DNA of 64,000 bases. Source: a virus (Duplodnaviria; Heunggongvirae; Uroviricota; Caudoviricetes). Positions 142 through 27,215 of this stretch are shown here, one piece after another. The DNA is taken from IMG/VR virus record IMGVR_UViG_2778261503_000006; one strand, given 5' to 3'. A program made the position numbers and the translations under genes. Positions within the stretch are counted from its first letter, which is position 1. The number at the start of each line of letters is the position of its first letter. Under the pieces are notes generated by a model. The model was not told the origin of the DNA. It saw only the letters and a list, made by a program, of their open reading frames with translations, and did not search any database.

Positions 142-159
142 AACCAACGTTTCTATGCC
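134..159. other. candidate invertase crossover site (cix/gix-like)
   Basis: TTCTCCTAAACCAACGTTTCTATGCC resembles my recollection of gix (TTCC...AAACC...GTTTT); sits at a cassette junction. Confidence 0.3.
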
Positions 160-581: not shown

Positions 582-598
582 ACCAACGTTTTTATGCC
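395..598. repeat. direct repeat copy 2
   Basis: ccgcgtaaatcgggaagacggagggtcgggtag...aaaccaacgtt repeated; approximate left boundary. Confidence 0.8.
573..598. other. candidate invertase crossover site (cix/gix-like)
   Basis: TTCCCCCAAACCAACGTTTTTATGCC at the junction between the two cassettes. Confidence 0.3.
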
Positions 599-1053: not shown

Positions 1054-1068
1054 ACCAACGTTTATCTC
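865..1068. repeat. direct repeat copy 3, adjacent to invertase gene
   Basis: same sequence as copies 1 and 2; approximate left boundary. Confidence 0.8.
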
Positions 1069-1070
1069 TC
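1045..1070. other. candidate invertase crossover site (cix/gix-like)
   Basis: TTCCCCCAAACCAACGTTTATCTCTC, 55 bp upstream of the invertase start. Confidence 0.3.
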
Positions 1071-1124
1071 AAATCCTCCCCACATTATCTCAGTACTTTA
1101 ACCACTCAAAAGGGAGTATTTTTA

Positions 1125-1697
1125 ATGCTGATTGGCTACATACGTGTGTCAACAAATGACCAAAACACAGATTTGCAACGCAATGCATTAATGTGCGCAG
1201 GATGTGAACAGATTTTTGAGGACAAAATGAGCGGAACCAAGTCGGAACGACCAGGCCTGAAACGCGCTTTAAAGTGCCTTAAAAGAGGGGATACATTGGT
1301 GGTCTGGAAGCTGGATCGGTTGGGTAGAAGAATGAAACACCTCATTGCTCTCACAGAAGAGTTACGCGCAAAAGGTGTCAATTTTCGCAGTCTGACGGAT
1401 TCAATCGATACCAGCACTCCGATGGGAAGGTTCTTTTTTCATATGATGGGTGCACTGGCAGAAATGGAGCGTGAACTGATAGTTGAGCGCACGCTGGCAG
1501 GACTGGCTGCTGCGCGAGCACAAGGAAGAGTTGGAGGACGTCGCCCGAAACTGACGAAGGAGCAGCATGAGCAGATCGCAAGATTGCTCCAGAAAGGGTA
1601 TGACAGAAAGCGGCTGGCAATTATCTATGATATTGGACTGTCAACGATCTACCGCTATCACCCTGTTGGGACTGTCATAACGCAACCTGAAATGTAA
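1125..1697 (+). CDS. cin: Cin/Gin/Pin/Hin-family serine DNA invertase
   Basis: 190 aa from ATG 1125 with AAGGGAG RBS; IGYIRVSTNDQ catalytic-Ser block, VVWKLDRLGR, C-terminal HTH; the track's longer ORF from 996 is an upstream extension. Confidence 0.9.
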   Translation: MLIGYIRVSTNDQNTDLQRNALMCAGCEQIFEDKMSGTKSERPGLKRALKCLKRGDTLVVWKLDRLGRRMKHLIALTEELRAKGVNFRSLTDSIDTSTPMGRFFFHMMGALAEMERELIVERTLAGLAAARAQGRVGGRRPKLTKEQHEQIARLLQKGYDRKRLAIIYDIGLSTIYRYHPVGTVITQPEM

Positions 1698-1913
1698 TTC
1701 TTTTTCAAATAATGAAACGCCGCGTGGATGCCATTTATCGCACAAGATAGAGTGCATTTATCGCGCGGCGCATCATCATTTGTTGATATGCGAATGTATC
1801 CAATAAGCATATGTCTCCCTTGTATGCTAAGGATACGATCCTAGAAGATGTCCTGTAAGGAAATAACAAACTGACTAAGTTAGTGGCGCATTAGATGTTA
1901 TTTCTGGAGGGGT

Positions 1914-2240
1914 ATGTTTGCAGATTATGAAAATCTGGCTGTAGTAGTCATAACATCCCTACTAAGTGGAACCGGCGTATTCCTTCTCGGAGTTAGAGAC
2001 GGGCGCATTTCTGCGTCCCTGCTCAATCTTGCGAGTGAATTGTTTACTGCGGTAACAGCCGGGCTTGCGGGGTATGGGGTGGCGGTTAGCCAAGAATGGC
2101 CTGAAGGTATCATTTTCTGCGTTGTTCTGATTGCCAGTAACAACGGTAGTGAAATTTTACAGGGCTTGAAGTCCAGAGCTAGTTACGTCTTGAATCTCTT
2201 AAGCGTAATAGCGAATGGGGGAAAAGGTGGAGAGAAATAA
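1914..2240 (+). CDS. holin-like small membrane protein (LydA-like by position and size)
   Basis: 108 aa with three hydrophobic segments; first gene of the operon after the invertase, as lydA in P1 (synteny from memory). Confidence 0.5.
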   Translation: MFADYENLAVVVITSLLSGTGVFLLGVRDGRISASLLNLASELFTAVTAGLAGYGVAVSQEWPEGIIFCVVLIASNNGSEILQGLKSRASYVLNLLSVIANGGKGGEK

Positions 2241-2686
2241 TGGGTAACTTTGGAAATTATTTCATTTTTATCATGGCATTTGTTGCCATCATTGACCGTT
2301 TCATTTTTCGTCGCAAGAGTGTTGAGATTTTGAGTATTGGTGACGCTGTAGTGAAAGAATCCGCTATAGCATTTCCTGTTTCGCTACGTGTTAAGCGAAG
2401 CTGGGTCAGCAATGCTCAAATCGAATATTGGTTGCAAGACCTGAAAAATCCATCTGTGGTTATTTCAGGGAAAACGCGACCAGTTGACGCCTCAAAACGC
2501 GGTGAGAGAGAAGAGTATTTGCTCATCGATACGAAATATCTTGAGCCAACGAAGTGGGATCTGAAAGTCACATTGACTAACGGTAACTGCCGACTGAATC
2601 CGCTTTATCGCATTTTCCCTATCAATGACTGCATAGAGCGCCAGTTTACGATCGAAAAGCGTAAAGGAGACTGGGATGTCAAATAA
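2240..2686 (+). CDS. hypothetical protein (LydB-like antiholin by position and size)
   Basis: 148 aa, start overlaps the stop of the previous gene; synteny only. Confidence 0.4.
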   Translation: MGNFGNYFIFIMAFVAIIDRFIFRRKSVEILSIGDAVVKESAIAFPVSLRVKRSWVSNAQIEYWLQDLKNPSVVISGKTRPVDASKRGEREEYLLIDTKYLEPTKWDLKVTLTNGNCRLNPLYRIFPINDCIERQFTIEKRKGDWDVK

Positions 2687-3296
2687 GAATAATTATGTTC
2701 TTCTTAATTATGATGAGTTAAACGAAAAGGGGCTGGCAAAACTCGTCAAAGAAATCAGCAAAGGTGGTTACAAGATAGCGAGGGTGATCCCTGCAAGTAA
2801 TGGCAGGAAGAAAGATGGGATCATGACGCGCACGTTTACCCTTATTGGTATTGATGAACAGACAATGGAAGTTCAGGTTAACGATACCGGTGATATATCT
2901 GGGATCAAACTGAATGGTAAAACAGTACCGTTCAAGCCAGTAAAAACAATGTCGGCTTTGGGGCAATCTCTTGCGGCTTTATTTAATCGCGGAGCAACTT
3001 CTTTCCAGAAGTCATTAGCTCGAAAACTTGCTCGTGCAGCAAAAAATATTGATGACGGAAATAAGAAGCGGCAGGGAGTTAAATCTAACGCTCAGAAATT
3101 AGCTGAAGCGAAAGAATCACGTGATGCACTCCGTGAAGATATCGCTAATGCTAACGACAAACTGTCTAAACTCCAGAGCAAGTCAGACAAAGTAATGCAA
3201 GATACGGGTAACGTTAAAGCTGCCTTGTCTCAGGAAGTAGCTAAGACACGTGCTCTTAAAGAAGAAATCGCGCGCCTGGAGGATGAGCATGATTAA
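2676..3296 (+). CDS. Hdf-like protein (shares a module with the following DarA-like protein)
   Basis: 206 aa; central segment resembles a segment of the 3283..5214 product (beta-rich stretch then K/R-rich helical stretch). Confidence 0.45.
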   Translation: MSNKNNYVLLNYDELNEKGLAKLVKEISKGGYKIARVIPASNGRKKDGIMTRTFTLIGIDEQTMEVQVNDTGDISGIKLNGKTVPFKPVKTMSALGQSLAALFNRGATSFQKSLARKLARAAKNIDDGNKKRQGVKSNAQKLAEAKESRDALREDIANANDKLSKLQSKSDKVMQDTGNVKAALSQEVAKTRALKEEIARLEDEHD

Positions 3297-5214
3297 CAAT
3301 CCTTTACGAATTAATATTCAGTCTACTTTTGCTGATACGATCCCCGGCTATGTGCCAAGTCGCTGGTCTTCAGAAGAATTAAGCGAAGATGACCTGATTT
3401 TTGAGGCGGCGACCTTAGAAGATATTGAGCTTGCCTATATGGGCAATGAAATTCTGGTTGTGTCTGACGAAGCTATGTTTGAGTCCATAACTACAACCAG
3501 AATTCGGTTAGCTCAAACAATGCGAGCTTTCGTCCGTGCGCTGAATCGTGGCCTGAATGGTACGAATATTATGGCAGGGACTGATGAAGCCGGGACCGAT
3601 GAAAATGGACGTAATTGTATTGGTGGTGCGATTATCGGTCGTGTACGTCGGGTAGCTAATATCCCTGTTTTGACCGCGCAGATACCGCTTACTGACGGGC
3701 AGAGTACAAGCATAATTTTCCACTCTCCAACAGCTGACGGGGCAAAAATAAAGAGTAACGACGAGCTTGTTGCATTTCAGTTTTTACTTAATAAGCGTAA
3801 CGTAACTCACGTTGTCGCCCCGATTGGTGGGAGAGATGTTTCTTTAAGCCAGGTATGCCAGGCGCTATCTAATTTGATTGAGCGTAACAGCGAAAAATTT
3901 AAGAAAGCAAAAGAGCGCCAGGACAAAATGAAGGCAGATATTGAGAGTTATCTCAATGAAGCAGATAAACTGGCAGAAGAACGGTCAATAATGATTGATC
4001 AGGTGGACGTTGCGCAACGTGGGCTGACTGAAAAGCGTGCTGCTCTTACGGAGATGCAAAAAAAACTTGATGCCCAGAAAGCCATCAACGAGGAATTACA
4101 AGAAAAACGCGATAAATTGTTGTCTGCTAAAGGTGAAAAAACGAAGGAACGAGCGTTTAGTGACCAGCTGCGACATGTAAAACATAATCTTGCCATTGAC
4201 GGAAAAACAGTGCTGGATAATGGCGCTGAAGTTAATTATATCACGTCCGGCAGTGACAATTTCGTTACGATAGTAGCACCTGAAGGTAAATTCAGTATTG
4301 ATGCCAGTGCTGTCAAAGGAGGCAGTTTGGCAGATGCTGCAACCAAATTACTTAAAGCCTACCGAGAGCATAACGCAGATAAATATAAAGTTGATGTGTT
4401 ACCAGGCCAGCAGGAAGACCCCGAACCACCACAGACAGACCCCGAGACGAACCCAGTATCACAACCAGAGAGCCAGGATGTAGGTAAATACCACTATGCA
4501 CTTCAATCTCGCCCGGCTGGTGTTGGTGCTGTGCCGGATGGAAATAAAGCCGTGCTTGATCGTCCTGACCAGGCTGATCAGTATTACGAATATGCTCGTC
4601 ACGGTATCATTACGTATGACCGTAAACTGACAGATGAAGAAGTCAGCCAGTACGAGTTGCTCTATCTTCCTGATGAAGATGAGCTGAAAGATTTTGCAGG
4701 CCAATTGGTTGTGTCCAGCATGTCGAAACATATTGATGGCTATGTAGACCTGTTTGGCAGTGACCTGAAAACATTCAAGGCGCAAGTGAAAATTCTTTTC
4801 CGCAAAGCGTTTCCAAACGTGGCGTATCCACTTGGTGATGGGGAGAACCTTTTCATTATGGACGTGTATAACGCCCTTCAAAATCATTCAAGCGAAGTAA
4901 AAACAGAGCATGTGGTTGAGCCGGAATCACAACCACAACCAGCACCAGAACAGGAGCCGGAGCCAGAAGAAGCTGGTGAATCAGCAAGTGAAGCTGATCA
5001 GGAGGCAGATAAAGCACTGGAGTACCTGAAATCCGTGCCGGAGCAGTTTACATCCCGCGATCTGACGGTCATCAGTGCTGAACTTGATCATGTGCAGGAA
5101 GCAGCAAACGCTCTAATCAGCGCAGGTCGATACGACGAGAACGAAGCCACTGTTGGTGCAGCAGTTGACTACCTGATCAACATTCTGGCTGAAATTCAGC
5201 AGGGAGGTGCTTAA
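3283..5214 (+). CDS. darA: DarA-like antirestriction/head-associated protein
   Basis: 643 aa from ATG 3283 with GGAGGA RBS; size and operon position match P1 DarA as I recall it; acidic Pro/Glu-rich linkers. Confidence 0.5.
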   Translation: MSMINNPLRINIQSTFADTIPGYVPSRWSSEELSEDDLIFEAATLEDIELAYMGNEILVVSDEAMFESITTTRIRLAQTMRAFVRALNRGLNGTNIMAGTDEAGTDENGRNCIGGAIIGRVRRVANIPVLTAQIPLTDGQSTSIIFHSPTADGAKIKSNDELVAFQFLLNKRNVTHVVAPIGGRDVSLSQVCQALSNLIERNSEKFKKAKERQDKMKADIESYLNEADKLAEERSIMIDQVDVAQRGLTEKRAALTEMQKKLDAQKAINEELQEKRDKLLSAKGEKTKERAFSDQLRHVKHNLAIDGKTVLDNGAEVNYITSGSDNFVTIVAPEGKFSIDASAVKGGSLADAATKLLKAYREHNADKYKVDVLPGQQEDPEPPQTDPETNPVSQPESQDVGKYHYALQSRPAGVGAVPDGNKAVLDRPDQADQYYEYARHGIITYDRKLTDEEVSQYELLYLPDEDELKDFAGQLVVSSMSKHIDGYVDLFGSDLKTFKAQVKILFRKAFPNVAYPLGDGENLFIMDVYNALQNHSSEVKTEHVVEPESQPQPAPEQEPEPEEAGESASEADQEADKALEYLKSVPEQFTSRDLTVISAELDHVQEAANALISAGRYDENEATVGAAVDYLINILAEIQQGGA

Positions 5215-5582
5215 TGACCATCTCTGTTTTAGACCGCCTGAAATTAGGTAAAGAGCTATCAGATCTAATGCAGGCGCAGAAAACGGCGCCAGTATTGCAA
5301 CGCGTCACCATTGGTAAGCAGATTGTTGATGTGATGCTGAAATTGGGCTTGGGGACTGCCGCGCAACCGGCAGCGGAACCGCAACAACAGACTGATCCTG
5401 TTGTAGATGAAGTTCCTAAGATAGTGACTGACTTCCTGGGCGGTGTGTTCACAAAGTCCACACAAATGGAATTTATTGATGCGCTGCGTGGGATCTCAAA
5501 CTATGTTGGCGAGTTCCTTACGTTGGAACAGGCAAAAGAGCAGACCATAAGCTGGGTGAAAGCCAACGGTTATGCAGGGTAA
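5214..5582 (+). CDS. small protein (DdrA-like by position)
   Basis: 122 aa, ATGA start/stop overlap with the DarA-like gene. Confidence 0.4.
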   Translation: MTISVLDRLKLGKELSDLMQAQKTAPVLQRVTIGKQIVDVMLKLGLGTAAQPAAEPQQQTDPVVDEVPKIVTDFLGGVFTKSTQMEFIDALRGISNYVGEFLTLEQAKEQTISWVKANGYAG

Positions 5583-5675
5583 TCAAAGGGGCTGAAATGC
5601 CCCTTTCACTTTCCTGTAAGTCCATAAATCACACACTTTTTACACTTCCTGCTTTCTATGTAAGGGGAGTGTATT

Positions 5676-8600
5676 TTGAACAAGTCAGTTACTTCCGCGC
5701 TATCCGAAGCAGCAGACATTAACAGTGTTATTGCGCTGGTTTCTTCATTAGAGAGGCGAGAAACACGCCAGGGGCGCAGTAGTTACGTAGTCACCAGTAA
5801 AGGGGCAGAGGTAAAGACGGCTTTTAAGGTCGTTGATGCCAGCAGTCTGATCATTTCGAACAACCTTGACGGTACGATTAATCCGGCCTTCCCGGAAGAA
5901 CTCCAGCCACGTGACCGTACACGGCTATCAAGCAAACTCCAGGTTAACCGTATTGCCTCCAATTTACGCCCGGCACAATTAACGGATTCCGGCATGAGCA
6001 GCCACGGAGCGCCGATAGTTGGTCCGGACAACGTTGTTGAATCCGGCAACGGAAGGAGCATGGGTATCTGGCGTGCCTATGAGCAAGGGCAGGCGGATGA
6101 ATATCGCCAGTACCTGATCGATCATGCAAAAGAGTTTGGTCTGAATCCTGACGACATTTCACAAATGTCTATGCCCGTATTGGTGCGAGAAAGACTCACA
6201 GATGTAGACCGCGCACAATTTGCCCGCGATTCAAACATCAGCGATCTGCAAGAGATGGCTGCAAGTGAAAAAGCGTATGCGGATGCGCAATTTCTCACTG
6301 AGAGCGTCATGGCGCTATTTAATCCTTCAGATGATGGAAATCTACTGGCGCGGTCCAATGATGCGTTTATTCGTGCGTTTTTGCGCGAAATAGGTGATAC
6401 GGCGACGGCAGGTTTGCTTACTGCCGATGGGCGTCCAACGAAACAACTTATCGACCGCATCCAGAATGCAATTTTTGCCAAAGCGTACAAGGATGAAAGG
6501 CTTGTTCGGCTGGTGGCGGAAGAGCCAGATCCGGAAATGCGTAACATTCTTACCGCATTAAATACGGCAGCCAGCGATTTTGCGCAAATGCAGTCGCTTT
6601 CAGGTGATGTTCACCATGACACGGTAACCGGACTGGTAGACGGTATAGAGCAATTGAATGGTCTGGATAAACAGGCTATTGCCGCGCTACAGGAAGCAAT
6701 TAACCTTGTTCGTGAAGCAAAAGATAACGGTCAGGCAGTAGAAGAGGTGATCGCACAGCGTGGATTGTTTGGAGATAGCACTCCGGAAGCAGAAGCGCTT
6801 GCTCTGTTTATTGTTGCCAACAACCGAAGCGCTAAGCGAATGGGGGCAGCTTTCAAGAAACTGGCGCAAAAAATTAACGATGAACTTATTCACCAGCAAC
6901 AAGCGTTAGGCGATATGTTCGGCGGCGGAGATGTCGATCTGCGTAGCATTTTATCTGCCGTTTCTGATGAAATTGAGGCTGAGTATGGCGAAGGTAAAGG
7001 GCTTAATTTCGCCATGTTTGAATCGGTTTCAGGAGAGGTCGAACCATACATTTCAAAGCTAATTGCTGATGCGACCAGCGTGGAGGACTTGATCCGAATC
7101 GTGAAGGTGTCAGAAAAAATTAAGGAGTCCGCAAAAAAAATAAAGCGCAATGTATTTTTGGAACTTGGTTTTTATATTCGCAATGTCACCGTTAATGAGA
7201 TTAAGGAGTGGGCTAAACGTTATGGATACAGCGACGCTGTGTTAACAACGATGTTATTGTCTTATCAACGCAGCAATTTTTATGCTAACGCACTGCGTGA
7301 CGCGATTGAAAAAGGAGATGAAGCTCCTTCGCTCGCAGATGAAAGAAATATTGATTGTGATATTGAAACGTTTTGCAACATATCAGAAGAAGGCGTGCCC
7401 GCTGAACAATTTATACGTGTTTTACATAATGCAGCAAAACATATTCCTGATGACTTTAGTATTGATGAATTGCGCAATGGTTGTCTTGTTTGGTTAGGTA
7501 ACTATTTAAAATCTCCAGCGTCTATTGCAGAGAAAACAGCTTTAAGATTTAGAAAGGAAATGAATAAAGCTGGAAGCGCAGAAGAGATGGTGTGCATAAT
7601 CCAAAATACTTTGAAGTTATTCAAAAAGAGCTTGCATAATATCGACGATATTATGGCGGCTGGTAGGAAAATAACAGCCAGTGTCGGAGTTAGCTCTGAA
7701 CTAACGGCAGAGGAGATCGCTGATGCGTATATTGAGACACTTGTCAGGCTTAAGGAGATAGTGGAATTAGCAGAGCATTCCTCATATTACGGAATCAAGG
7801 AGCGTGTTGACTTTACTATAGAACAAATCAATAAAGTTAGGTCAAATAAGGAAAAACTCACTGACTACCTTGCTGAGGTTTTGCACCAGAATGATCATGG
7901 GATTGGATATGATCTGAAAAAAATGCTTGTTTTTAATCTGGACATACCGGAAGACTTGCAAGCAGAACTATATGAAATAGCTTCATTAACACGTGGACAA
8001 AAAGCCTATCCTAATGCGCTTGAAAATGTAGTACATAAAAAAGTCAGAGCCGCATTTGACATGATTCTTGAATCGTCAAATGTGTCACATGACCAGTCTA
8101 AGGAATGGAGTCGTGGGATTGCTATTTCTGATGAAGCAGAGCAGTTAAGTGGTCACGATAATGAAACTTTCTCCCGTAAAGCATACAGTATTCGCGAGAC
8201 GATTGAAAAAGCCTATATTATTTCAGGAGGGACTTTATCTACATTAAAAAATATTAACCACAAGAACAATGTTCGTGCTTTTGCAAGTCGAAATGGGAAT
8301 ATAACAATTGATGCTAATAGTGATCACGAGCGTGTATTATGGCATGAAATAGGTCACCATATAGAACATTCAAATCCCCATCTATTGGAGAGGGCCAAAG
8401 CCTTCATTAAATCAAAAACTAACGGTAAAGTTTCTTATCATAATATTGGTAGCCGTGGCAGTGCTGAGTATTTGGTGCGAACCGACCTAAGTCATGGATA
8501 TATGTCTAAAATTTATATGGAAAATACGGTAAGTTCTGTCAGCGGCAGATTTATATCAAAGCCACCTGCATTAAGCAATTGCAGGGCGACTGAGATTTTT

Positions 8601-8717
8601 TCTATGGCCTTGCAGATGTATGCCGATCCGGAGCAGGCGACTAACTCTGTATTAAACAATGACGGCGTGCTGGAATTTTTCTTGGGATGTATGAAGGAGT
8701 TGCAAAATGAAGTATAG
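5676..8717 (+). CDS. large virion-associated protein (DdrB-like by position) with AT-rich C-terminal HExxH metallopeptidase-like module
   Basis: 1013 aa from TTG 5676 with AAGGGGA RBS; GC drops visibly after ~nt 7100; WHEIGHHIEH at nt 8339-8368. Confidence 0.6.
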   Translation: MNKSVTSALSEAADINSVIALVSSLERRETRQGRSSYVVTSKGAEVKTAFKVVDASSLIISNNLDGTINPAFPEELQPRDRTRLSSKLQVNRIASNLRPAQLTDSGMSSHGAPIVGPDNVVESGNGRSMGIWRAYEQGQADEYRQYLIDHAKEFGLNPDDISQMSMPVLVRERLTDVDRAQFARDSNISDLQEMAASEKAYADAQFLTESVMALFNPSDDGNLLARSNDAFIRAFLREIGDTATAGLLTADGRPTKQLIDRIQNAIFAKAYKDERLVRLVAEEPDPEMRNILTALNTAASDFAQMQSLSGDVHHDTVTGLVDGIEQLNGLDKQAIAALQEAINLVREAKDNGQAVEEVIAQRGLFGDSTPEAEALALFIVANNRSAKRMGAAFKKLAQKINDELIHQQQALGDMFGGGDVDLRSILSAVSDEIEAEYGEGKGLNFAMFESVSGEVEPYISKLIADATSVEDLIRIVKVSEKIKESAKKIKRNVFLELGFYIRNVTVNEIKEWAKRYGYSDAVLTTMLLSYQRSNFYANALRDAIEKGDEAPSLADERNIDCDIETFCNISEEGVPAEQFIRVLHNAAKHIPDDFSIDELRNGCLVWLGNYLKSPASIAEKTALRFRKEMNKAGSAEEMVCIIQNTLKLFKKSLHNIDDIMAAGRKITASVGVSSELTAEEIADAYIETLVRLKEIVELAEHSSYYGIKERVDFTIEQINKVRSNKEKLTDYLAEVLHQNDHGIGYDLKKMLVFNLDIPEDLQAELYEIASLTRGQKAYPNALENVVHKKVRAAFDMILESSNVSHDQSKEWSRGIAISDEAEQLSGHDNETFSRKAYSIRETIEKAYIISGGTLSTLKNINHKNNVRAFASRNGNITIDANSDHERVLWHEIGHHIEHSNPHLLERAKAFIKSKTNGKVSYHNIGSRGSAEYLVRTDLSHGYMSKIYMENTVSSVSGRFISKPPALSNCRATEIFSMALQMYADPEQATNSVLNNDGVLEFFLGCMKELQNEV

Positions 8718-9000
8718 CATTGTGAGTCCCGCTGGGATTAGAGGGATTGTTGAATGCTCTGATGACGGCACATTGCGTATATTTGAAGGCGATATTTCGG
8801 AAGAAAATATTGCGCAAGATTTACGCTTTATCAACACAAATTCCGCAATGGGGATCGTGAATACCATTCATGCCGATGGGGTGTTTGTTCTGCGGAGCCT
8901 GGAAACTGTTGGCTGGGAGGTTGAGTGGCCAGAGGTGGAAGGAGATCCTGACGACGAAGACGATACTGGCGAATCATATCAAGACATTGATGTGAATTGA
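8707..9000 (+). CDS. small acidic protein, possible partner of the upstream C-terminal module
   Basis: 97 aa, overlaps the stop of the 1013-aa gene, Asp/Glu-rich C-terminus, followed by a terminator. Confidence 0.5.
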   Translation: MKYSIVSPAGIRGIVECSDDGTLRIFEGDISEENIAQDLRFINTNSAMGIVNTIHADGVFVLRSLETVGWEVEWPEVEGDPDDEDDTGESYQDIDVN

Positions 9001-9013
9001 TATGATTGATAAT

Positions 9014-9036
9014 CCCGCCGTCAGGCGGGTTTTTTT
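9014..9036. terminator. rho-independent terminator (hairpin plus T-run), shared by convergent genes
   Basis: cccgccgtcaggcggg followed by ttttttt. Confidence 0.75.
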
Positions 9037-9298
9037 AGCGTGGTGTAAGAATAAATTCAGGATGCTCTCCAGCAAGCAATAACAGGTACTCAAATTCACC
9101 AGCCATAAGGCGTCTCGGTTTATTTCTATCTTCTTTGAATTGCCAAGCCCGGAGTTGATACCCCATTTTGTGGGCTAACTCCGTTTGCGTTAGCCCCATT
9201 CGCTGGCGGATTTCAATTATAGTTTCCGGGGTGTTTGGTGGGAGTTGTTTCACAATATGCCCTTTGCCAATGCTGTGATTCGCAACGAAGTATATCAT
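9035..9298 (-). CDS. XRE-family helix-turn-helix regulator
   Basis: 87 aa; RQRMGLTQTELAHKMGYQLRAWQFKE HTH signature. Confidence 0.7.
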   Translation of the reverse strand: MIYFVANHSIGKGHIVKQLPPNTPETIIEIRQRMGLTQTELAHKMGYQLRAWQFKEDRNKPRRLMAGEFEYLLLLAGEHPEFILTPR

Positions 9299-9310
9299 CG
9301 TTGAATCGAT

Positions 9311-9613
9311 TCACAGAGCTGCGCCGAATAGACCGCAGCATGGCATCCCTTCATCACAGTACCTGGCCCATTCTTTTTGGCATTCTTCTGTTTGCGCGTA
9401 TTGGCTTAACGCGTCATCCAGCATATCCCAGGCCTTATAGGAATCCTCTGCAACGCTAAACAAAGTCCTGCCTTCCCGGCTTAGAATTTGCAGATTGTAA
9501 ATGTTTTCATTGCTCAGACATGCGCGGCTGATATGCATGTAAACCGACCATGCAGGAACTCGATTTTTGATAGCAAGTTGGTGTAATTTGGAATTAATTA
9601 AAGAGCTTTTCAT
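9311..9613 (-). CDS. hypothetical protein co-transcribed with the downstream HTH gene (possible toxin-like partner)
   Basis: 100 aa from ATG 9613 with GGAGA RBS; 13-bp gap to the HTH gene. Confidence 0.45.
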   Translation of the reverse strand: MKSSLINSKLHQLAIKNRVPAWSVYMHISRACLSNENIYNLQILSREGRTLFSVAEDSYKAWDMLDDALSQYAQTEECQKEWARYCDEGMPCCGLFGAAL

Positions 9614-9796
9614 GGGATTTCTCCGCAGCAAAGTGGTCAACTTTTTCAATCTTAATGCGCACAATGTGCATATTCAAGTTTTATTCTTCACTTTGTTACG
9701 AGAGGGGCCAGCCAATATTTCTAGTTGAAAAGATCCATCATCAAAAATCACATACTGATTATGCTGCCGCAAACTGAAAACATTTCGCGGTGACTC

Positions 9797-15865: not shown

Positions 15866-18800
15866 TTGGACAAACTACTTCATTCAATCAGTGAAGCCTC
15901 CAGCTTAGGCGAACTGATTGAAATTGTTAGTCGGTTGCATAAATTACGTGCTGTTGCGACCTTTGGCGTCAGGAAAGCCGATGGCGTCAGTATTCAGAAA
16001 ACACGCCGGGCAGCAAACAATGCCGCAGTAAATCTTCTTAATTCCCTTCCGCCCGGCTTCGATGGGGCGAAATTAACTGACGAACAACGTCAGATTCTTG
16101 CTGGGTATACCGGTGAAGGCGGCCTGACAGATGGTGAGGGCAGCCAATACGAATACTACACGCCACAGTTTATGGCTGAAGGTATATGGGAGCTGTTTGC
16201 TGACTACGGTATTGATGGCGGTCACGTACTGGAACCATCAGCTGGCACGGGTATTTTCCAGGAGACAAAACGGCAGGGAATGATAATGACCAGCGCCGAG
16301 CTGTCTCCGATCTCCGGTCGAATCAACCAGCTGTTGCACCCGGAAGACGATGTGAACATTGGGGCGTTTGAGGCTCTGGCGGCGAAAGACGCAATGTATG
16401 ACCACGCTGTTGGTAACGTACCGTTTGGCGAAGGCCGTTCCGGCGTTGCAGGGCTTGATCCGGCATATGCAAACGAGAAGAACGTTGGCAATTACTTTGT
16501 GCTGCGCACGATCGACAAGGTTAAACCTGGTGGGCTTATCGTATTGGTGGTGCCGAATGGCATGACTGATGGTACGAAATACAAAAAATTGCGCGATAAA
16601 GTCAGCCGTAAAGCGGAATTTTTGGGCGCGCATCGTATGCCTTCCGGTACGTTCAGTGAATCAGGTACAGATACCGTGGTGGACGTATGGGTATTGCGTA
16701 AACACCCGGAAGCCTTCCTGGAGATGATCCCCGATACGGATGATTCGACGCTCAAATCGGCAAACGTCCTTTGGGTTACCTTCCTCAAAGGGAAATGGTT
16801 TACAACCGAAGGGAAGCGATTTGTTTACGGCGACATGGAACGTACCAGCTTCCGCAATACCCTAGTGGTGAAAAAAGACGGTCGTGTATCCAATGAGTCG
16901 ATGAAAACCGCGCTATCTCGTCGCTTTGATAGTCGCATCAATTGGGATTTGCTCGGCGTAACTACTCAGGCATGGCAGGGCGCGAAAGTGGGCGATAAAC
17001 GCCTTGTAGGCGGTATCTGGCATGAGTTTGATGGTCTGAAATGGGTTCAGGACACGACAACCAAATCCTCCGCGCTTGATGTAAGTCGATATGGTGTTTC
17101 GACGTTTGGCGATCTGCAGATCGCGTTCCAGTCAACAAACGGGATTCTGGCTTTGTCATGGGACCAGATATCGGCGATCGCGTCCGACTATCCATCGGTT
17201 GTCAGTGATGAAGTGGCAGCAATGATTCGCTTTGCTGGCAAGCAGCGAGAAAAAGACAGGGAGCGCGTTATGCGCGGTGCACTGATAGGTCAGTTGATCA
17301 ACAAGGCACTTGATTTGCGTAACCTGGGGGTGAACGTTGATGACAAACTGGCAGATGCATCCCGCTTGGCGGCAGCAGAAGTTGCGAAGTATGGACCACC
17401 GCACGCGATTAAGCTGAATGGGCTTGCTGAAGCTGGCGCTAAAAACTGGATGACGTTCACTGGCAATGTGAAACAGGATGGTTCCACTTCTGACCTTCTG
17501 GCAGGGCGACTTGATGTAACGGATGGTGCTGCCGGTATTGACTTTACGCGTCCTGAACAAGTGATAGCACATCTTTTTAGTGATGTAGCCCTTAATCCTA
17601 TAACGCTGGGCGACTTTCGTGAGGCGTTTGCTGGTGAACTGCCAGAGGACGACGACGCGGTCCTTGAATACCTGGCGAAATTTGATGATATCGCTATTGA
17701 TGGGTATGGCTGTCTGCTGCCGATGGACCGCGCCACCAGCGGCGATGTTGCAACCAAAACAGCACTGCTGGTGGGCTGGCGTGATGCGTCAACAGGTGAG
17801 CAGAAAGCGAACTTTGAGCGTCAGTTGGCGAAAATCGAAGAGAAACGCATTTTCACGCCACTAAATAAAGTCACCGTTAATCTGAATGCCCGCTGGCTGG
17901 ATCGCCGCTTGATAAAAGAGTTCCTGGCAGAGCAGGGCTATGACGAGTTTAAGTACACTGAACCTGATCTGAAGGTCGTCGATGGCATTCTGGTATCTCC
18001 GGACGATTACGAAGGTAAGGACGGGGTATTTACCGGCTATCAGCTACGAACCGTAAACGGCAAAAACGGGAATGAGTTCAAGAAGGCCAACAATAAAGAC
18101 GGCTTCCTGAACCAGTTAGAAAACTACCTGAACGGTGTTAAACCGCGTGGGCAGAACGCTAACGAGTACCTGGATAAAATTGCTCAACTGGAAGTTAGCT
18201 TTAACGACTGGTTACGCACCCACCCGCAGGCGGATCAGATAGCCCGTGACTATAACGACGCATTCAATGGTTTCATTCCGTTCACACATTCTGACGCACC
18301 GCTTGGCCTGGAAGGGATTAGTGGAAAGCGCATTCCTCTGACTTATCAGAATGAAGAAGTTCGGCGCTTGTCAGAAGATGGGCGTGGCATCATGGGATTT
18401 GGTACCGGGCTGGGTAAAACCACGACCGCGCTTGCGCTTGAGGCGTATAACTTCGAAACAGGTCGCACTAAACGCACGTGTATTGTTGTTCCGAAGGCGG
18501 TTTATCAGAACTGGTATCACGAGGCACAGAGTTTCTACAGTGCTGATGCCTTCGCCAATATGATGTTTATCGGTTTGGATGAAGTTCGTGATGACAGCGG
18601 AAATATTCTGACCGCGCCGGTGCTTGATGAAAATGGCGAACCACGCCTCGACAGTAACGGGCAGCCTCTTACCAGAAATGTTGTGAAAGAGTCCTCCAGC
18701 GCCGTTATCGTTCAGCGTATGAACATGATCCCGTCGTCAAATTGGCGAACGGTCATCATGACAAAAGAACAATTCGCGTCTATCCCGCTACGAGAAAAAA

Positions 18801-21800
18801 CCATCGAGGAGAACTCACAGCAAGCTGTCTTTAATGCTGTGGAAATGGGGCGTCTTGACCTGGCGTCCGGTAAACACCGTGATGCGCAGAAGAAGAACAA
18901 GATTAAGGATCAGGCCGCGAATACCGGTACAACGAAGAAGCAGAATATCCCTTACTTTGAGGATATGAACTTCGATAGCGTGATTGCCGACGAGGGGCAT
19001 AACTACCGCAACTCCTTTAATGCCGGGCGTGAAGCGGGACAACTGGCATATTTGCCTAACCCGGCAGTATCCAAGATGGCCCGCGACATGGCTGTAAAAG
19101 CTGCGTACATGATGAAACGCAACAACGGGCGTGGTGTAGTCATGCTGACGGCAACACCGCTGGTGAACAGTCCGATTGATGCCTTCAACATGCTGTCTAC
19201 TGTCATTCCGCAGGAAGAGTGGATGCGTATGGGCATCATTACGCCTGATGATTTCGTTCGTGTGTTTGGCAAAACAGCCACAGTTCAGGTCCAGAAAATT
19301 TCCGGGGAAGTGGAAGAGAAGCAGGGGCTGGTGGGCTTCCAGAACCTTGACGGCCTGCGTGGTATTTTCCATCGTTGGACCACTCTGAAGACTGCTGCAG
19401 ATGTCGGAGCGACGGTTAAAATTCCCGACATCATCGAGAACACCTTGCAGATCCCGATGACAGGGGAGCAGGAGACTGCTTATGAAGAGCTTCGTAAGCG
19501 TGCTCAGGAGTTAAGTCGCAATGATGAGCTGACAGTCGATGAAAACGGGCATATCACTAACGACAAACCGGATGATTTCATCTTCTCCATCATCCGTGAC
19601 ATGGATAAGGTTGCTATAGACCCGGATCTGTATGCCAGTGCGATTACATTCCAGTTCCCCGTTGAGCTTGCAGACCAGGTAAAAGCTATTGCTGATGCCT
19701 TGCCAAAAGTAGCTGGCGGTAAAGTGGCAGATGATGTTGATGAGGCCGAGGAAGACGGCGCTGGCGGGCTGGTCAGTACGCGTACCAGCAAGGTAGTGAA
19801 GACCGCTTTTAGTGAACATCCGACGCATGTTGAAATACGTGCCAGCATTGAACTGGAAGCTGAAATACTGAAGGCCATTGCGGCTGCCGGCATTGATATG
19901 CAGCAGGTGTCGCACCCCATCCCGCCGAAGTATGCCGCGCTGATCGAAAATCTTCGTGAAGGTCTGAAGAACGGTAAGCAGATCGTCTTTATTGATGAAA
20001 AAGCCCAGCACCAGAAGCTGCGCCGTATTATCGCCAGTGCACTGCAAATGCCGGAGCAGGAGATTGGCATTATCAATGCGACGACAGTTAGCCAGGCTGG
20101 TGGCATCAAGCTGAAGAAGGTGAATAAGCCGACCGAACCTACTCCAAACAAAAACGGTGAATACAAAGAAGGGGCATGGGAAACCTACTACAGCAAACTT
20201 GCCCAATATGAGGATTATCTCTCCGCTAAAAATGATGCTGGCCTTGAGGGCATGGAAGGTATTGCCGCCGACTATAACGAAGGTCGCACGCGCATCATAA
20301 TCTGTAACAAGAAGGCTGAAGTAGGTATTAACCTGCACATCGGGACAACCGATATCCACCACCTGACACTACCCTGGACACCAGCCAGTATCGACCAACG
20401 AAATGGGCGCGGTGCGCGCGTAGGTTCACCGCAAGAAAAGGTCAATGTTCACTACTATTGTGGCAAAGGCACATTCGACGACTTCCGTCTGGATACGCTG
20501 AAACGTAAGAAAGACTGGATCAAGATGGTGATGACATCCGACATGTCAGAGATCGCCAATGGTGATGCGGATGATGCTGATGAACGCGCCATTATGCTGG
20601 CGGCAAACCCGGAAGAACGCCGCGCAATCATGGCTCGCCAGGCGCAAGAGCGTGAAGAACGTCTGAAACTGAAAGCACAGCGCGAGGCCAACAATGCTCT
20701 CGATATCTACCTGAAAGCGGCAAACGCCGCCGGAAAAGATATCGGCATGATGGAGACAGAACTGAAAAGCGCGATGGAACAGATAGAGTATTACCAGCGC
20801 AATCTTGACGACCTGATAAAAGCGGGTACGAACAGGAATGGGCAAAAATACGCGCTTGAGCAGTTGAGTAGCTACAGAAAACGTGCGCGGGTGCTGCGGT
20901 TTGCGATCACCAGGGCAAAAGACGCGGATACCATAATGAAACGCTCTCGTGGTGATGTGGAGCGCGCTATTAAGTCTGGTGTGCTGGATATCAGTATCGA
21001 TGTTATTCAGAACCCACAGGAATATATGCGCACTGACAAGAATATCCTGTTGCATAAAGGTAGTTATTACCGTGCAGTCATTGATGATCGCGAAACAACA
21101 GCGATTGTCCGGGTGGAAAAAATTGACGGTGAAAAAGCACAATACCTCTGCCGTATCGCCTGGCTGGATAGAGCAAGTCGTTACGCTCGAGCACCGGGGT
21201 CAATCGTTACATTGCCGTTTGACTCTGTGATTGAAGCGGTAACTTTTGAAGAGGGGGTAGCTGAATCGCGCGCAACGGCTGCGCGTGGTGTTCAGTGCCA
21301 CCAGCTATCAACAATACTTACTCGCGATCAGTTCTATGATGCTATTCGCAATGGGGTAATGAATGTTATTGCTGGTAAACCTGGTAATGCATGGGGCGGT
21401 GGGTCAGCTATTAAATACTGGGCATATCGCACAGATGATGGTCAGATCGCGCTGTCATCGGCCTATGATGGCGTGATAGGCCAAAAAATCGGGCGAGCAT
21501 CGGATATAGCACCTGAGCGATGGATATATCCTGATGGCAACGACGAGGCGCTGAAGCGTGAAGTGGCAAAAATACAAGCCAGTGATAACCCGCTGAATAT
21601 CGTGGACGGCGAGGGATTCCTCCAGGCATTGTATGGGTATGATTACACCCAGGGAATGCAGGCATGGGGCGCACAGGCAACGATGGATGATGTTGCCCAT
21701 GAGTTCGAAAACTGGATGGCTGGGCGTGGTCTGTCAGGTCGTTCGCTTAATAAAGTCACTTCTGAAGATATTCTTAGCTTGTTCCGCAAACCGTCCGGAG

Positions 21801-22738: not shown

Positions 22739-23173
22739 ATGACGACATTAATTGACACTGTAAAACCGACGGAATCCTACCTTGAGGACATTTTGCCGCA
22801 GGCGCTCAATGGCAGGAGTGAAGAGGCGTTTCTGGATGCATATCTGAATGGCATGGTGGAAAGGCTGAAACGAGATCCACAGCTTTATCACCTTTATGGG
22901 CCGTGGTGGCCTGCGCTTAAAACGTTATTGCTGGAGCGCGGCGACATATCATTTGGACAAGTTGTAGATAGTGATGTGGCAGAGATCTACAAAATGAGTC
23001 GCCCGGCGCTTACGGTTTTGGCTGGGCATCTGTATTCGAGCGATCGCCTGGAAAATGACGCGGTATACAATCCTGTTCATGCTCTGGAAGTCGCACCTTA
23101 TGCCGATGATACAGAGCCATACGTGTACACAAGTTACGACGAGTCTATAGAGAAATATCGAATTATGGGGTAG
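22739..23173 (+). CDS. hypothetical protein
   Basis: 144-aa ORF directly downstream of darB-like gene. Confidence 0.5.
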   Translation: MTTLIDTVKPTESYLEDILPQALNGRSEEAFLDAYLNGMVERLKRDPQLYHLYGPWWPALKTLLLERGDISFGQVVDSDVAEIYKMSRPALTVLAGHLYSSDRLENDAVYNPVHALEVAPYADDTEPYVYTSYDESIEKYRIMG

Positions 23174-27210: not shown

Positions 27211-27215
27211 ATTTA

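What the first reader, a model, noticed from the sequence alone, without database searches (positions are those of the whole stretch)
1914..8717. P1-type Dar antirestriction/lysis operon recognised by synteny
Seen: six co-directional, tightly packed ORFs of 108, 148, 206, 643, 122 and 1013 aa directly after the invertase; the 206-aa product resembles a segment of the 643-aa product. Established (from memory): P1 has lydA, lydB, hdf, darA, ddrA, ddrB in this relative order next to cin, with matching sizes, encoding holin/antiholin and head-packaged proteins that protect injected DNA from type I restriction. Inference: this is the homologous operon.
Basis: partly seen in the sequence, partly recalled or inferred. 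Interest (0 to 1): 0.45.

Follow-up and report, generated by a model that had tools for sequence, protein, structure and literature searches.

The report
P1-type Dar/lysis operon, D6-like prophage
This is the known lysis-plus-antirestriction (dar) operon of a D6/P1-type plasmid prophage of E. coli, encoding a holin pair and head-packaged proteins that shield injected phage DNA from host restriction; it is ordinary and already in the databases.

Summary
Window 1914-8717 holds six intact, co-directional genes. Each is the homologue, in the same order, of P1 lydA, lydB, hdf, darA, ddrA and ddrB (33-44% protein identity, E from 2e-23 to 0). The DNA is 100% identical to E. coli plasmid pB2C_96. It is 96% identical to phage D6 up to window 7021; D6's copy of this operon is annotated gene by gene as P1-like.

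Corrections:
- The unit has a seventh gene, 8707-9000. It is a homologue of P1 hxr, overlaps the ddrB stop by 11 nt as in P1, and is followed by a strong terminator at 9014-9036.
- The most likely darA start is 3289 (641 aa), not 3283.
- Hdf and DarA resemble each other only at profile level; both match Pfam DarA_N.
- The invertase is co-directional and only 69% identical to cin. There is no lydC.
- No P1-type late promoter precedes lydA. A different motif, AATMACAWACTG-N2-YANNNT, sits there and at the positions of three other P1 late promoters.
- DdrB is full length (1013 aa, ParB-like domain plus HEIGH motif), whereas D6 has a 454-aa truncation.

darB and ulx lie downstream, so all six Dar components are present. 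Function is inferred from homology, not tested. Novelty: already known. Interest: low.

The parts
1125..1697 (+). Serine DNA invertase of the tail-fibre inversion system. This is context, not part of the operon. It is co-directional with the operon.
   Evidence: Pfam Resolvase (E 8e-51) plus HTH_7 and PHROG DNA invertase. It is 73% identical in protein to P1 Cin but only 69% identical in DNA to cin of D6 and P1. In D6 and P1, cin is divergent from lydA.
1776..1810 (-). Remnant of the first ~12 codons (MLIGYIRISTND) of a D6-type divergent cin gene. It marks the left edge of homology with D6.
   Evidence: The ORF at 1658-1810(-) begins MLIGYIRISTND. The blastn match to D6 starts at window 1776, which corresponds to D6 locus 7861, inside the cin 5' end.
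1862..1881 (+). Candidate late promoter of the operon: AATAACAAACTG-AC-TAAGTT. The -10-like hexamer ends 32 nt before the lydA ATG.
   Evidence: The motif AATMACAWACTG-N2-YANNNT also lies 31 nt before prt (9746-9765), before ORF 57758 (57644-57663) and, with one mismatch, 35 nt before the putative endolysin gene (15769-15750, -). That is 4 hits against 0.02 expected, though the pattern was derived post hoc from three of them. An independent exact match lies before the R homologue in D6 and pB2C_96. The block is invariant in D6-like plasmids that are only 69-88% identical overall. Promoter activity is inferred, not shown.
1914..2240 (+). lydA: holin (108 aa).
   Evidence: BLASTP to P1 LydA gives 43% identity, E 2e-24. 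PHROG 1527 holin gives E 2e-38. Pfam Phage_holin_3_3 scores only 18 bits, below the 28.4-bit cut-off. Hydrophobic stretches lie at aa 6-29 and 55-74. P1 LydA is reported to have two predicted TM helices (PMC9025707).
2240..2686 (+). lydB: LydA antagonist or antiholin (148 aa). Its ATG overlaps the lydA stop codon.
   Evidence: Pfam LydB scores 87.5 bits against a cut-off of 28. BLASTP to P1 LydB gives 34% identity, E 2e-30. PHROG 1898 gives E 6e-69. An N-terminal hydrophobic stretch lies at aa 4-25.
2676..3296 (+). hdf: head-internal partner of DarA (206 aa), made of a DarA_N-like domain plus a C-terminal helical region.
   Evidence: BLASTP to P1 Hdf gives 40% identity, E 4e-32. Pfam DarA_N matches aa 11-106, E 8e-18. 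It matches PDB chain 9ukm_H 'Hdf', E 3e-25. PHROG 'Hdf-like antirestriction' gives E 1e-76.
3289..5214 (+). darA: antirestriction phage head protein (641 aa). Alternative starts are ATG 3283 (643 aa) and GTG 3250 (654 aa).
   Evidence: BLASTP to P1 DarA gives 39% identity over 620 aa, E 5e-142. Pfam DarA_N (E 5e-40) and DarA_C (E 9e-19) both match. NCBIfam NF052326 anti_RE_DarA scores 1152 bits against a cut-off of 350. It matches PDB 9ukm_I, E 6.5e-124. The start is supported by RBS spacing and by the RefSeq annotation.
5214..5582 (+). ddrA (122 aa).
   Evidence: BLASTP to P1 DdrA gives 33% identity, E 2e-23. PHROG 1855 'DdrA-like anti-restriction protein' gives E 5e-50. No Pfam or NCBIfam model matches.
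5585..5606 (+). Hairpin in the 93-nt ddrA-ddrB spacer (AAAGGGGC-UGAAAU-GCCCCUUU). P1 has only a 12-nt gap here. It may be an attenuator or an RNA-stability element; its role is unknown.
   Evidence: The fold of 5575-5680 gives -33.4 kcal/mol, z = -3.8, with 0 of 200 shuffles folding as well. It lacks a proper U-run and was not called by the terminator scan.
5676..8717 (+). ddrB (1013 aa, TTG start). It has an N-terminal DdrB-type ParB/Srx domain (aa 42-173, GNGR at aa 124), a variable middle (aa ~451-850) and a conserved C-terminal domain with HEIGH at aa 890 (nt 8343-8357).
   Evidence: BLASTP to P1 DdrB gives 44% identity end to end, E 0. Pfam ddrB-ParB gives E 1e-41. The identity profile against P1 is 42-84%, then 16-30%, then 44-50%, and the motif is conserved as HELGH in P1. 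Iyer et al. 2017 (PMC5512222) define the ParB-like plus zincin peptidase architecture for P1 DdrB. There is no solved relative. The fold of the C-terminal domain could not be tested.
7022..9744 (+). Module absent from phage D6: DdrB aa 450-1013, the hxr-like gene, an XRE-like gene (-) and orf117 (-). Its G+C content is lower than that of the rest of the operon.
   Evidence: blastn to D6 stops at 7021 and resumes at 9745. D6 has a 454-aa DdrB followed by a DUF4145 gene and orf23; another plasmid type has a 461-aa DdrB followed directly by prt. Only 4 of 120 related PLSDB plasmids carry this module. Even so, the same arrangement is on record in many assemblies: the 97-aa protein is in 1906 index blocks, and 8 of 8 places shown have the same gene order, with a 1013-aa DdrB called next to it in 7. 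G+C is 0.39 in the C half against 0.49 in the N half of ddrB.
8707..9000 (+). Seventh gene: a homologue of P1 hxr (97 aa, acidic C-terminal tail), translationally coupled to ddrB by an 11-nt overlap.
   Evidence: BLASTP to P1 Hxr gives 41% identity, E 3e-16. The same 11-nt overlap with ddrB is seen in P1 and in a third lineage, L017, where Hxr is 55% and the DdrB C-terminal part 49% identical. No HTH hit appears in Pfam for it or for P1 Hxr, even at E <= 1. The AF2 model has pLDDT 76.5 and a beta3-alpha3-beta order of elements, with no significant PDB fold match.
9014..9036 (+). Intrinsic terminator (CCCGCC-GTCA-GGCGGG followed by T7) that ends the transcription unit.
   Evidence: It is the top hit of the terminator scan.
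15866..22702 (+). darB: methyltransferase/helicase antirestriction protein (2278 aa). It is a separate locus of the same Dar system.
   Evidence: BLASTP to P1 DarB gives 40% identity, 1523 bits. D6 orf15 is annotated as similar to P1 darB.
22739..23173 (+). ulx (144 aa), immediately downstream of darB as in P1.
   Evidence: BLASTP to P1 Ulx gives 46% identity, E 7e-45.

Best explanation
The region is the dar (darA) late operon of a D6-like, P1-type plasmid prophage. It is a single transcription unit of seven genes, lydA-lydB-hdf-darA-ddrA-ddrB-hxr-like, spanning 1914-9000.

Inferred transcription: the unit is read late in lytic growth from a lineage-specific late promoter at 1862-1881 and ends at the terminator at 9014-9036.

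Inferred from P1 genetics: LydA is a membrane holin. LydB delays its triggering. Together they time the release or activation of an endolysin encoded elsewhere.

Shown by homology to proteins with solved structures in P1: Hdf and DarA are built into the procapsid as pairs on the inner capsid surface. There they contact the DNA, influence head size, and are needed to recruit the other Dar proteins.

Inferred from P1: DdrA and DdrB from this operon, and DarB and Ulx encoded 7 kb downstream, are packaged with them. On infection these proteins leave the head with the DNA and protect that DNA, in cis, from type I restriction systems.

Predicted only: DdrB carries a ParB/Srx-like domain and a C-terminal HExxH domain that may process the protein before packaging. 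The role of the coupled Hxr-like protein is unknown.
For: - Homology and synteny with P1 hold for all seven genes.
- The family models match: Pfam LydB, DarA_N (twice), DarA_C and ddrB-ParB; the NCBIfam DarA equivalog; PHROGs holin, lysis determining protein, Hdf-like and DdrA-like.
- DarA and Hdf match PDB chains 9ukm_I and 9ukm_H of the P1 virion. That structure shows 55 DarA-Hdf pairs on the inner capsid surface in contact with DNA (PMC12810830).
- darB and ulx are present. The portal gene is present, and so is a gene 96.8% identical in DNA to the D6 gene annotated as similar to P1 pro.
- The P1 virion proteome contains Hdf, DarA, DdrA, DdrB, DarB and Ulx (PMC9024508). Cis-acting protection against type I systems and BREX is reviewed in PMC12707154. 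The holin and antiholin roles are described in PMC9025707.
- Every gene is intact, with overlapping or near-adjacent junctions and good ribosome-binding sites.
- The candidate promoter motif recurs at the positions equivalent to P1 LPdar, LPpro, LPs and LPlyz.
- A clean terminator follows the seventh gene.
- The DNA is 96% identical to the phage D6 operon, which is annotated the same way.
Against: - Nothing here is experimental. Function rests on 33-46% protein identity to P1.
- The P1-type Lpa box (ACAAGTNACTT-N4-TANNNT) is absent upstream of lydA, and the alternative motif was partly defined post hoc.
- P1 Lyz, LydC, LydD and LydE have no homologue in the window. The endolysin partner is therefore unidentified; one candidate is the TIGR02594-type gene at 15229-15714(-).
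- LydA is below the Pfam cut-off (18 against 28.4 bits).
- The peptidase fold of the DdrB C-terminus could not be verified.
- Which restriction systems are countered cannot be read from sequence.
Confidence: 0.9

Rival explanations
1. In this lineage the hdf-darA-ddrA-ddrB genes act essentially as capsid-morphogenesis or scaffold-accessory proteins that determine head size. They have little or no antirestriction role, or they counter other defences such as BREX rather than type I R-M.
For: In P1, Hdf and DarA are head-size determinants bound to the capsid (PMC12810830; table in PMC9024508). Interpretation of dar mutant phenotypes is complicated because some Dar proteins are needed to load others (PMC12707154). 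Identity to P1 is only 33-46%. Many D6-like relatives carry a DdrB cut to 454-461 aa, which shows that part of the system is dispensable.
Against: The two roles are not exclusive in P1. All six Dar components, including the DarB methyltransferase/helicase and Ulx, are retained intact, which is hard to explain by morphogenesis alone. The NCBIfam equivalog for antirestriction DarA is met three-fold over its cut-off.
Confidence: 0.08
2. The operon belongs to a defective or decaying plasmid prophage, and its genes are no longer expressed or functional.
For: Defective D6-like variants that lack the lysis and antirestriction modules exist (PMC6799933). The tail-fibre and invertase region next to the operon is rearranged and carries a cin remnant.
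Against: All seven ORFs are full length with no frameshifts. The proteins are identical to sequences seen on tens to about a thousand contigs. Portal, the pro-like gene, terminase, tail, darB and ulx genes are present in the window.
Confidence: 0.02

Closest known systems
Bacteriophage P1 darA (dar) operon: lydA-lydB-hdf-darA-ddrA-ddrB-hxr, next to cin (NC_005856, 24.2-31.2 kb)
   Same: The gene content, order, sizes and domain architectures are the same, including the 11-nt ddrB/hxr overlap. Both sit next to the tail-fibre invertase. The partner genes darB-ulx lie elsewhere, and prt and a pro-like gene are present.
   Different: - Protein identity is only 33-46%, and DNA similarity is barely detectable (one 66% stretch in ddrB).
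- There is no lydC. The invertase is co-directional rather than divergent.
- A 93-nt hairpin-containing spacer precedes ddrB, against 12 nt in P1.
- The late-promoter box differs: AATMACAWACTG-N2-(-10) here, AAGTNACTT-N4-(-10) in P1.
- The downstream neighbours are an XRE-like gene, orf117 and then prt, rather than isaB, IS1 and ssb.
- P1 Lyz, LydD and LydE are absent from the window.
Escherichia phage D6 orf30-orf25 (NC_050154; Gilcrease & Casjens 2018) and D6-like plasmid prophages such as pYU39_89
   Same: The DNA is 96.4% identical from 35 nt inside the cin 5' end to DdrB codon ~449, and again from just before prt onward. The genes are annotated as similar to P1 lydA, lydB, hdf, darA, ddrA and ddrB. 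The promoter-like motif is the same.
   Different: - D6 DdrB is truncated at 454 aa and followed by a DUF4145 gene and orf23. D6 has no hxr-like gene, XRE-like gene or orf117.
- Here DdrB is full length, as in P1.
- D6 cin is divergent and of a different allele, and the tail-fibre cassettes differ.
Polyvalent, virion-delivered effector proteins with a DdrB-like ParB domain and a zincin metallopeptidase domain (Iyer et al. 2017, PMC5512222)
   Same: DdrB here has the DdrB-ParB domain (Pfam E 1e-41) with the conserved GNGR arginine and a C-terminal HEIGH motif aligned with HELGH of P1. It sits among late virion genes.
   Different: It has only two recognisable domains. Neither peptidase activity nor fold was verified here.
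Other packaged antirestriction proteins, for example phage T4 internal protein I
   Same: The concept is the same: proteins packed in the head and co-injected with the DNA to defeat restriction (PMC12810830 introduction).
   Different: There is no sequence relationship. According to the literature, Dar acts in cis and uses six interdependent components tied to capsid assembly.

Membership tests
P1-type Dar antirestriction system / darA operon | Co-directional gene order lydA-lydB-hdf-darA-ddrA-ddrB(-hxr) beside the tail-fibre invertase | tested here: met
   ORF map, P1 annotation and pairwise BLASTP of each gene.
P1-type Dar antirestriction system / darA operon | DarA with DarA_N and DarA_C domains, meeting the NCBIfam equivalog NF052326 | tested here: met
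   Pfam E 5e-40 and 9e-19. NF052326 scores 1152 bits against a cut-off of 350. P1 DarA gives E 5e-142. PDB 9ukm_I gives E 6.5e-124.
P1-type Dar antirestriction system / darA operon | Hdf: a small paralogue that carries the DarA_N domain | tested here: met
   Pfam DarA_N matches aa 11-106, E 8e-18. P1 Hdf gives E 4e-32. PDB 9ukm_H gives E 3e-25. Direct Hdf-DarA BLASTP is negative.
P1-type Dar antirestriction system / darA operon | DdrA and DdrB homologues | tested here: met
   DdrA gives E 2e-23. DdrB gives 777 bits, E 0, over the full length.
P1-type Dar antirestriction system / darA operon | Partner genes darB and ulx present in the same genome | tested here: met
   darB at 15866-22702 is 40% identical. 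ulx at 22739-23173 is 46% identical, E 7e-45.
P1-type Dar antirestriction system / darA operon | P1-type Lpa-dependent late promoter (AAGTNACTT box, 4 nt, TANNNT) in front of lydA | tested here: not met
   No match lies upstream of lydA, and only one perfect P1-type site exists in the window, at 58669(-). A different conserved motif occupies the position. This is a regulatory difference; it does not define the protein families.
P1-type Dar antirestriction system / darA operon | Proteins packaged in the head, processed by Pro, ejected with the DNA; cis protection from type I R-M | not testable with these tools
   This is known for P1 only (PMC9024508, PMC12810830, PMC12707154). A gene 96.8% identical in DNA to the D6 gene annotated as similar to P1 pro is present at 11493-12491.
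LydA holin / LydB antiholin | Small membrane protein homologous to LydA with at least 2 hydrophobic helices | tested here: met
   P1 LydA gives E 2e-24. PHROG holin gives E 2e-38. Hydrophobic stretches lie at aa 6-29 and 55-74. The Pfam PF16083 score is below its cut-off (18 against 28.4 bits).
LydA holin / LydB antiholin | LydB family protein encoded immediately downstream | tested here: met
   Pfam PF16084 scores 87.5 bits against a cut-off of 28. P1 LydB gives E 2e-30. The start codon overlaps the lydA stop.
LydA holin / LydB antiholin | Works with the P1 SAR-endolysin Lyz (and LydC/LydD) | tested here: not met
   tblastn of P1 Lyz, LydC, LydD and LydE against the window finds nothing. The window covers 64 of about 96 kb. 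A TIGR02594-type muramidase-like gene at 15229-15714(-) is a candidate partner.
Zincin-like metallopeptidase domain of polyvalent proteins (DdrB C-terminus) | HExxH zinc-binding motif in a conserved C-terminal domain | tested here: met
   HEIGH at aa 890 aligns with HELGH at aa 872 of P1. The surrounding 160 aa are 44-50% identical.
Zincin-like metallopeptidase domain of polyvalent proteins (DdrB C-terminus) | Zincin fold | tested here: inconclusive
   The single-sequence AF2 model has pLDDT 36 and is unusable. There is no Pfam model and no PDB relative. The homologue search for a deep alignment returned nothing.
Xre-type HTH repressor (the label carried by P1 Hxr) | Helix-turn-helix DNA-binding domain | tested here: not met
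   No HTH family appears in Pfam for the 97-aa product or for P1 Hxr at E <= 1. The AF2 model (pLDDT 76.5) has three strands, three helices and one strand. No significant PDB match exists and no repressors are among the hits. The model rests on only 4 sequences.

The most novel reading that the evidence does not exclude
Two small points may not have been described before.

1. The Hxr-like protein may not be an Xre-type repressor. It may instead be a conserved, translationally coupled partner of the peptidase-bearing C-terminal half of DdrB. The 11-nt overlap is kept in three lineages that are 31-49% identical in that half, and both parts are missing together in D6-type truncations. Natural D6-like variants with 454-, 461- or 1013-aa DdrB would then be a ready-made experiment on what that half of DdrB does.

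2. The D6 lineage may use its own late-promoter box (AATMACAWACTG-N2-(-10)) in place of the P1 Lpa box. That would imply a late activator with diverged specificity.
Probability: 0.3. Interest if true: 0.3.

Novelty: already known. Interest (0 to 1): 0.1.

Why it matters
It matters little beyond annotation. The result confirms that this E. coli phage-plasmid (pB2C_96 type, D6-like) carries a complete P1-style Dar system with a full-length DdrB. RefSeq labels most of these genes 'hypothetical protein', so they could be named. Dar systems affect how well P1-like phages and phage-plasmids cross restriction barriers. This is relevant to transduction, to the spread of phage-plasmids (some of which carry resistance genes), and to P1-based delivery tools. 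The natural DdrB length variants and the lineage-specific late-promoter motif are modest leads for specialists.

Tried and rejected
- Direct Hdf against DarA comparison. BLASTP found nothing and the Smith-Waterman score had z = 1.7. Only the shared Pfam DarA_N domain links the two.
- P1-type late promoter upstream of lydA. The 9-mer AAGTTAGTG that looked promising occurs at chance frequency (12 hits against 11.8 expected). Its second half is not conserved in relatives. A consensus scan found no P1-type site there. Rejected in favour of the conserved AATMACAWACTG motif.
- Sigma-70 scan of 1000-10000. It found fewer sites than in shuffles and none in front of lydA.
- The search for homologous proteins with the DdrB C-terminal half returned nothing. 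The 90% cluster is represented by a 461-aa truncated protein, and the word index misses relatives at 31% identity.
- AF2 of DdrB aa 841-1013 without an alignment gave pLDDT 36 and was not used.
- Foldseek of the Hxr-like model against the PDB gave no significant match.
- The iddB-like antisense ORF at 6122-6547(-) is 64% identical to P1 IddB. It lies opposite the most conserved part of ddrB, where the sense protein is 56-84% identical. I take it to be a by-product of sense-strand conservation, not evidence of a gene.
- I first assumed the window is pB2C_96 throughout. Window 1-1900 is only 96-98% identical to it and is arranged differently.
- The primary papers on D6 (PMC5800970) and on the multicomponent Dar system (PMC6011833) are not held in the library. 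Their content is cited only through later papers.

Full report
**What is in the sequence**

- 1914-2240, 108 aa.
- 2240-2686, 148 aa.
- 2676-3296, 206 aa.
- 3250, 3283 or 3289 to 5214, giving 654, 643 or 641 aa depending on the start codon.
- 5214-5582, 122 aa.
- 5676-8717, 1013 aa, with a TTG start.

They follow a serine invertase at 1125-1697 (Pfam Resolvase plus HTH_7). The junctions overlap by 1, 11, 8-14 and 1 nt. The exception is a 93-nt gap before the last gene, which contains an 8-bp G+C-rich hairpin at 5585-5606. A seventh ORF (8707-9000, 97 aa) overlaps the stop of the 1013-aa gene by 11 nt. A textbook intrinsic terminator (CCCGCC-GTCA-GGCGGG-T7) follows at 9014-9036. The unit is therefore 1914-9000, not 1914-8717.

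**Where the window comes from**

- Megablast of 1914-8717 gives 100% identity to E. coli plasmid pB2C_96 (NZ_CP035876, human stool, Vietnam). It matches 120 non-mobilizable Escherichia, Salmonella and Shigella plasmids in all.
- It is 96.5% identical over its first 75% to phage D6.
- In the D6 RefSeq record the corresponding genes are annotated as similar to P1 lydA, lydB, hdf, darA, ddrA and ddrB.
- All seven proteins exist as exact sequences in public collections. The 1013-aa one is already named 'ddrB' in E. coli B2C, and relatives of the 641-aa one are named 'antirestriction phage head protein DarA'.

**Test of the interpretation against P1 itself**

I used the annotated P1 record. BLASTP of each product against the P1 protein of the same rank gave the following:
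- LydA: 43% identity, E 2e-24.
- LydB: 34%, E 2e-30.
- Hdf: 40%, E 4e-32.
- DarA: 39% over 620 aa, E 5e-142.
- DdrA: 33%, E 2e-23.
- DdrB: 44% end to end, E 0.

The 97-aa product is 41% identical to P1 Hxr (E 3e-16). In P1, hxr also overlaps the end of ddrB by 11 nt.

The family models agree:
- Pfam matches LydB, DarA_N plus DarA_C in DarA, DarA_N in Hdf, and ddrB-ParB in DdrB.
- PHROGs matches holin, lysis determining protein, Hdf-like and DdrA-like.
- The NCBIfam equivalog 'antirestriction phage head protein DarA' scores 1152 bits against a cut-off of 350.
- DarA and Hdf match chains I and H of the P1 virion structure 9ukm. DdrB has no solved relative.

The other two Dar components are also in the window: darB at 15866-22702 (40% identity to P1 DarB) and ulx directly after it at 22739-23173 (46%, E 7e-45). 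The portal gene lies just downstream, followed by a gene 96.8% identical in DNA to the D6 gene annotated as similar to P1 pro.

- Hdf and DarA do not resemble each other detectably in a direct comparison. The relationship is visible only because both match the DarA_N profile. That part of the 'seen' observation probably came from memory of the name 'homolog of DarA fragment'.
- The most likely darA start is ATG 3289 (641 aa). It has GGAGG 6 nt upstream and is the start used by RefSeq.
- In P1 and D6, cin is divergent from lydA, and P1 has lydC between them. Here the invertase is co-directional and only 69% identical in DNA to either cin. A 35-nt remnant of a D6-type cin 5' end lies at 1810-1776 on the minus strand, and there is no lydC.

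**DdrB**

Compared with P1, identity is 42-84% in aa 1-450. This part holds the ParB/Srx-like domain at aa 42-173 and the GNGR motif at aa 124. Identity falls to 16-30% in aa 451-850 and rises to 44-50% in aa 851-1013, where HEIGH (aa 890) aligns with HELGH of P1. This is the architecture described for P1 DdrB by Iyer et al. (PMC5512222): a DdrB-like ParB domain plus a C-terminal zincin-type peptidase proposed to process the protein before packaging. I could confirm the motif but not the fold.

Homology with D6 stops at window 7021 (DdrB codon ~449) and resumes at 9745. D6-like elements therefore come in at least three states:
- Full-length DdrB plus the hxr-like gene, an XRE-like gene and orf117. 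This window is of this type, as are 4 of 120 PLSDB plasmids. The arrangement is nevertheless common in wider assembly collections: the 97-aa protein is on record in 1906 index blocks, and all 8 places shown have the same gene order, with a 1013-aa DdrB called beside it in 7 of them.
- A 454-aa DdrB followed by a DUF4145 gene and orf23, as in D6.
- A 461-aa DdrB followed directly by prt.

Full-length DdrB is shared with P1, with Cronobacter phage JK004 and with a third lineage, L017. The truncations are therefore the derived state. The full-length half has a lower G+C content (0.39 against 0.49).

**The Hxr-like gene**

The 11-nt overlap with ddrB is kept in P1, in this window and in L017, where the protein is 55% identical. 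Neither this protein nor P1 Hxr has any HTH hit in Pfam, even at E <= 1. A moderately confident AF2 model (pLDDT 76.5, from only four sequences) has three strands, three helices and one strand, and finds no significant match in the PDB. The 'Xre homologue' label therefore looks doubtful, but the function stays open.

**Transcription signals**

The P1 late promoters annotated in the record share ACAAGTNACTT, a 4-nt spacer and TANNNT. No such site precedes lydA, and the window has only one perfect P1-type site, at 58669 on the minus strand.

An alignment of the lydA upstream region from the window, D6 and two plasmids that are 88% and 69% identical shows an invariant block, GGAAATAACAAACTG-NN-TAAGTT. 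The derived pattern AATMACAWACTG-N2-YANNNT occurs at four places in the window (4 hits against 0.02 expected):
- 32 nt before lydA, at 1862-1881.
- 31 nt before prt, at 9746-9765.
- Before ORF 57758, at 57644-57663.
- With one mismatch, 35 nt before the putative endolysin gene, at 15769-15750 on the minus strand.

As an independent exact match, it also lies 38 nt before the R homologue in D6 and pB2C_96. P1 has late promoters before lydA, prt, R and its endolysin gene lyz (LPdar, LPpro, LPs and LPlyz).

The pattern was built from three of these sites, so the enrichment figure is inflated. The site before R and the site with one mismatch are the independent support. I read the motif as the late-promoter type of the D6 lineage. 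It is a candidate, and it may already be described in the D6 paper, which I could not read.

**Mechanism**

The mechanism is inferred from P1. LydA is the holin and LydB its antagonist (PMC9025707). Here LydA has hydrophobic stretches at aa 6-29 and 55-74, and LydB has an N-terminal hydrophobic stretch. P1 Lyz, LydC, LydD and LydE have no homologue in the window, so the endolysin partner differs or lies outside it. The TIGR02594-type gene at 15229-15714(-) carries the same promoter-like motif and is a candidate.

In P1, 55 DarA-Hdf pairs sit on the inner capsid surface and contact the DNA. They are absent from heads that have ejected their DNA, and deleting either protein removes all the other Dar proteins from the virion (PMC12810830). 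Hdf, DarA, DdrA, DdrB, DarB and Ulx are all found in the P1 virion proteome (PMC9024508). The system protects only the co-packaged DNA against several type I systems and BREX (PMC12707154). The same is the most likely function here, with the caveat that nothing has been tested in this lineage.

**Verdict**

This is a correct identification of a known operon in a known group of phage-plasmids. It is ordinary and already in the databases, so interest is low. The only mildly new points are the conserved hxr-like seventh gene, the natural DdrB length polymorphism and the lineage-specific late-promoter motif.

Noticed in passing
window 1-1125 and L006:3800-9000: There is a multi-cassette tail-fibre inversion system. 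Two minus-strand cassettes for alternative fibre C-termini (153-581 and 592-1053, Phage Tail Collar domain) each begin with a conserved segment of about 230 nt. That segment is an inverted repeat (85-93%) of a stretch inside the expressed S gene. Window 1-1900 is arranged differently from the otherwise identical plasmid pB2C_96, as expected for inversion isomers or recombinants.
   Followed up: partly
L006:4391-5890 (pB2C_96, just outside the window): The tail-fibre gene S contains five tandem 300-nt repeats that are 99% identical, each with an internal 132/168-nt sub-repeat.
   Followed up: no
window 1125-1697 and 1776-1810: The invertase is co-directional with the dar operon and only 69% identical in DNA to cin of P1 or D6. 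A 35-nt remnant of a divergent D6-type cin 5' end remains next to it. This suggests the whole fibre/invertase module was swapped by recombination inside cin.
   Followed up: partly
window 1862-1881, 9746-9765, 15750-15769(-), 57644-57663; L001:1345-1364: A shared motif, AATMACAWACTG-N2-YANNNT, lies 31-38 nt upstream of lydA, prt, the putative endolysin gene and R. P1 has late promoters before lydA, prt, R and its endolysin gene lyz. The motif is not found in the P1 stretches examined here, which hold LPdar, LPs, LPsit, LPlyz and LPpro. A single perfect P1-type box lies at 58669(-).
   Followed up: yes
window 9035-9664 (-): Two small minus-strand genes lie between the operon terminator and prt: a weak-HTH XRE-like gene (9035-9298, annotated shorter in RefSeq) and orf117 (9311-9664, no family hit). 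Both are absent from D6, and their function is unknown.
   Followed up: partly
window 6122-6547 (-): A 141-aa antisense ORF inside ddrB is 64% identical to P1 'IddB' and lies at the equivalent position. It sits opposite the best-conserved part of ddrB, so it is probably a by-product of sense-strand conservation.
   Followed up: partly
window 13815-14999 and 52319-53740: There are two immunity-I-type modules. Each has a C4 antisense RNA (Rfam 68.8 and 76 bits), an icd-like ORF and an Ant-type antirepressor. The second also has an isrK-like RNA. P1 has one such module.
   Followed up: no
window 27136-28428: A cluster of five tRNA genes (Asn-GTT, Tyr-GTA, Thr-TGT, Ser-TGA, Met-CAT). The related plasmid pYU39_89 is reported to have four.
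   Followed up: no
window 15229-15714 (-): A TIGR02594-family, tail-lysozyme-like protein is a candidate endolysin. P1 Lyz, LydC, LydD and LydE have no homologue in the window.
   Followed up: partly
L001:13272-13829 (phage D6 orf24): The gene that replaces the DdrB C-terminal half in D6 has weak DUF4145 and HEPN (RiboL-PSP) hits, both below the Pfam cut-offs. It could be a defence-type cargo gene.
   Followed up: no
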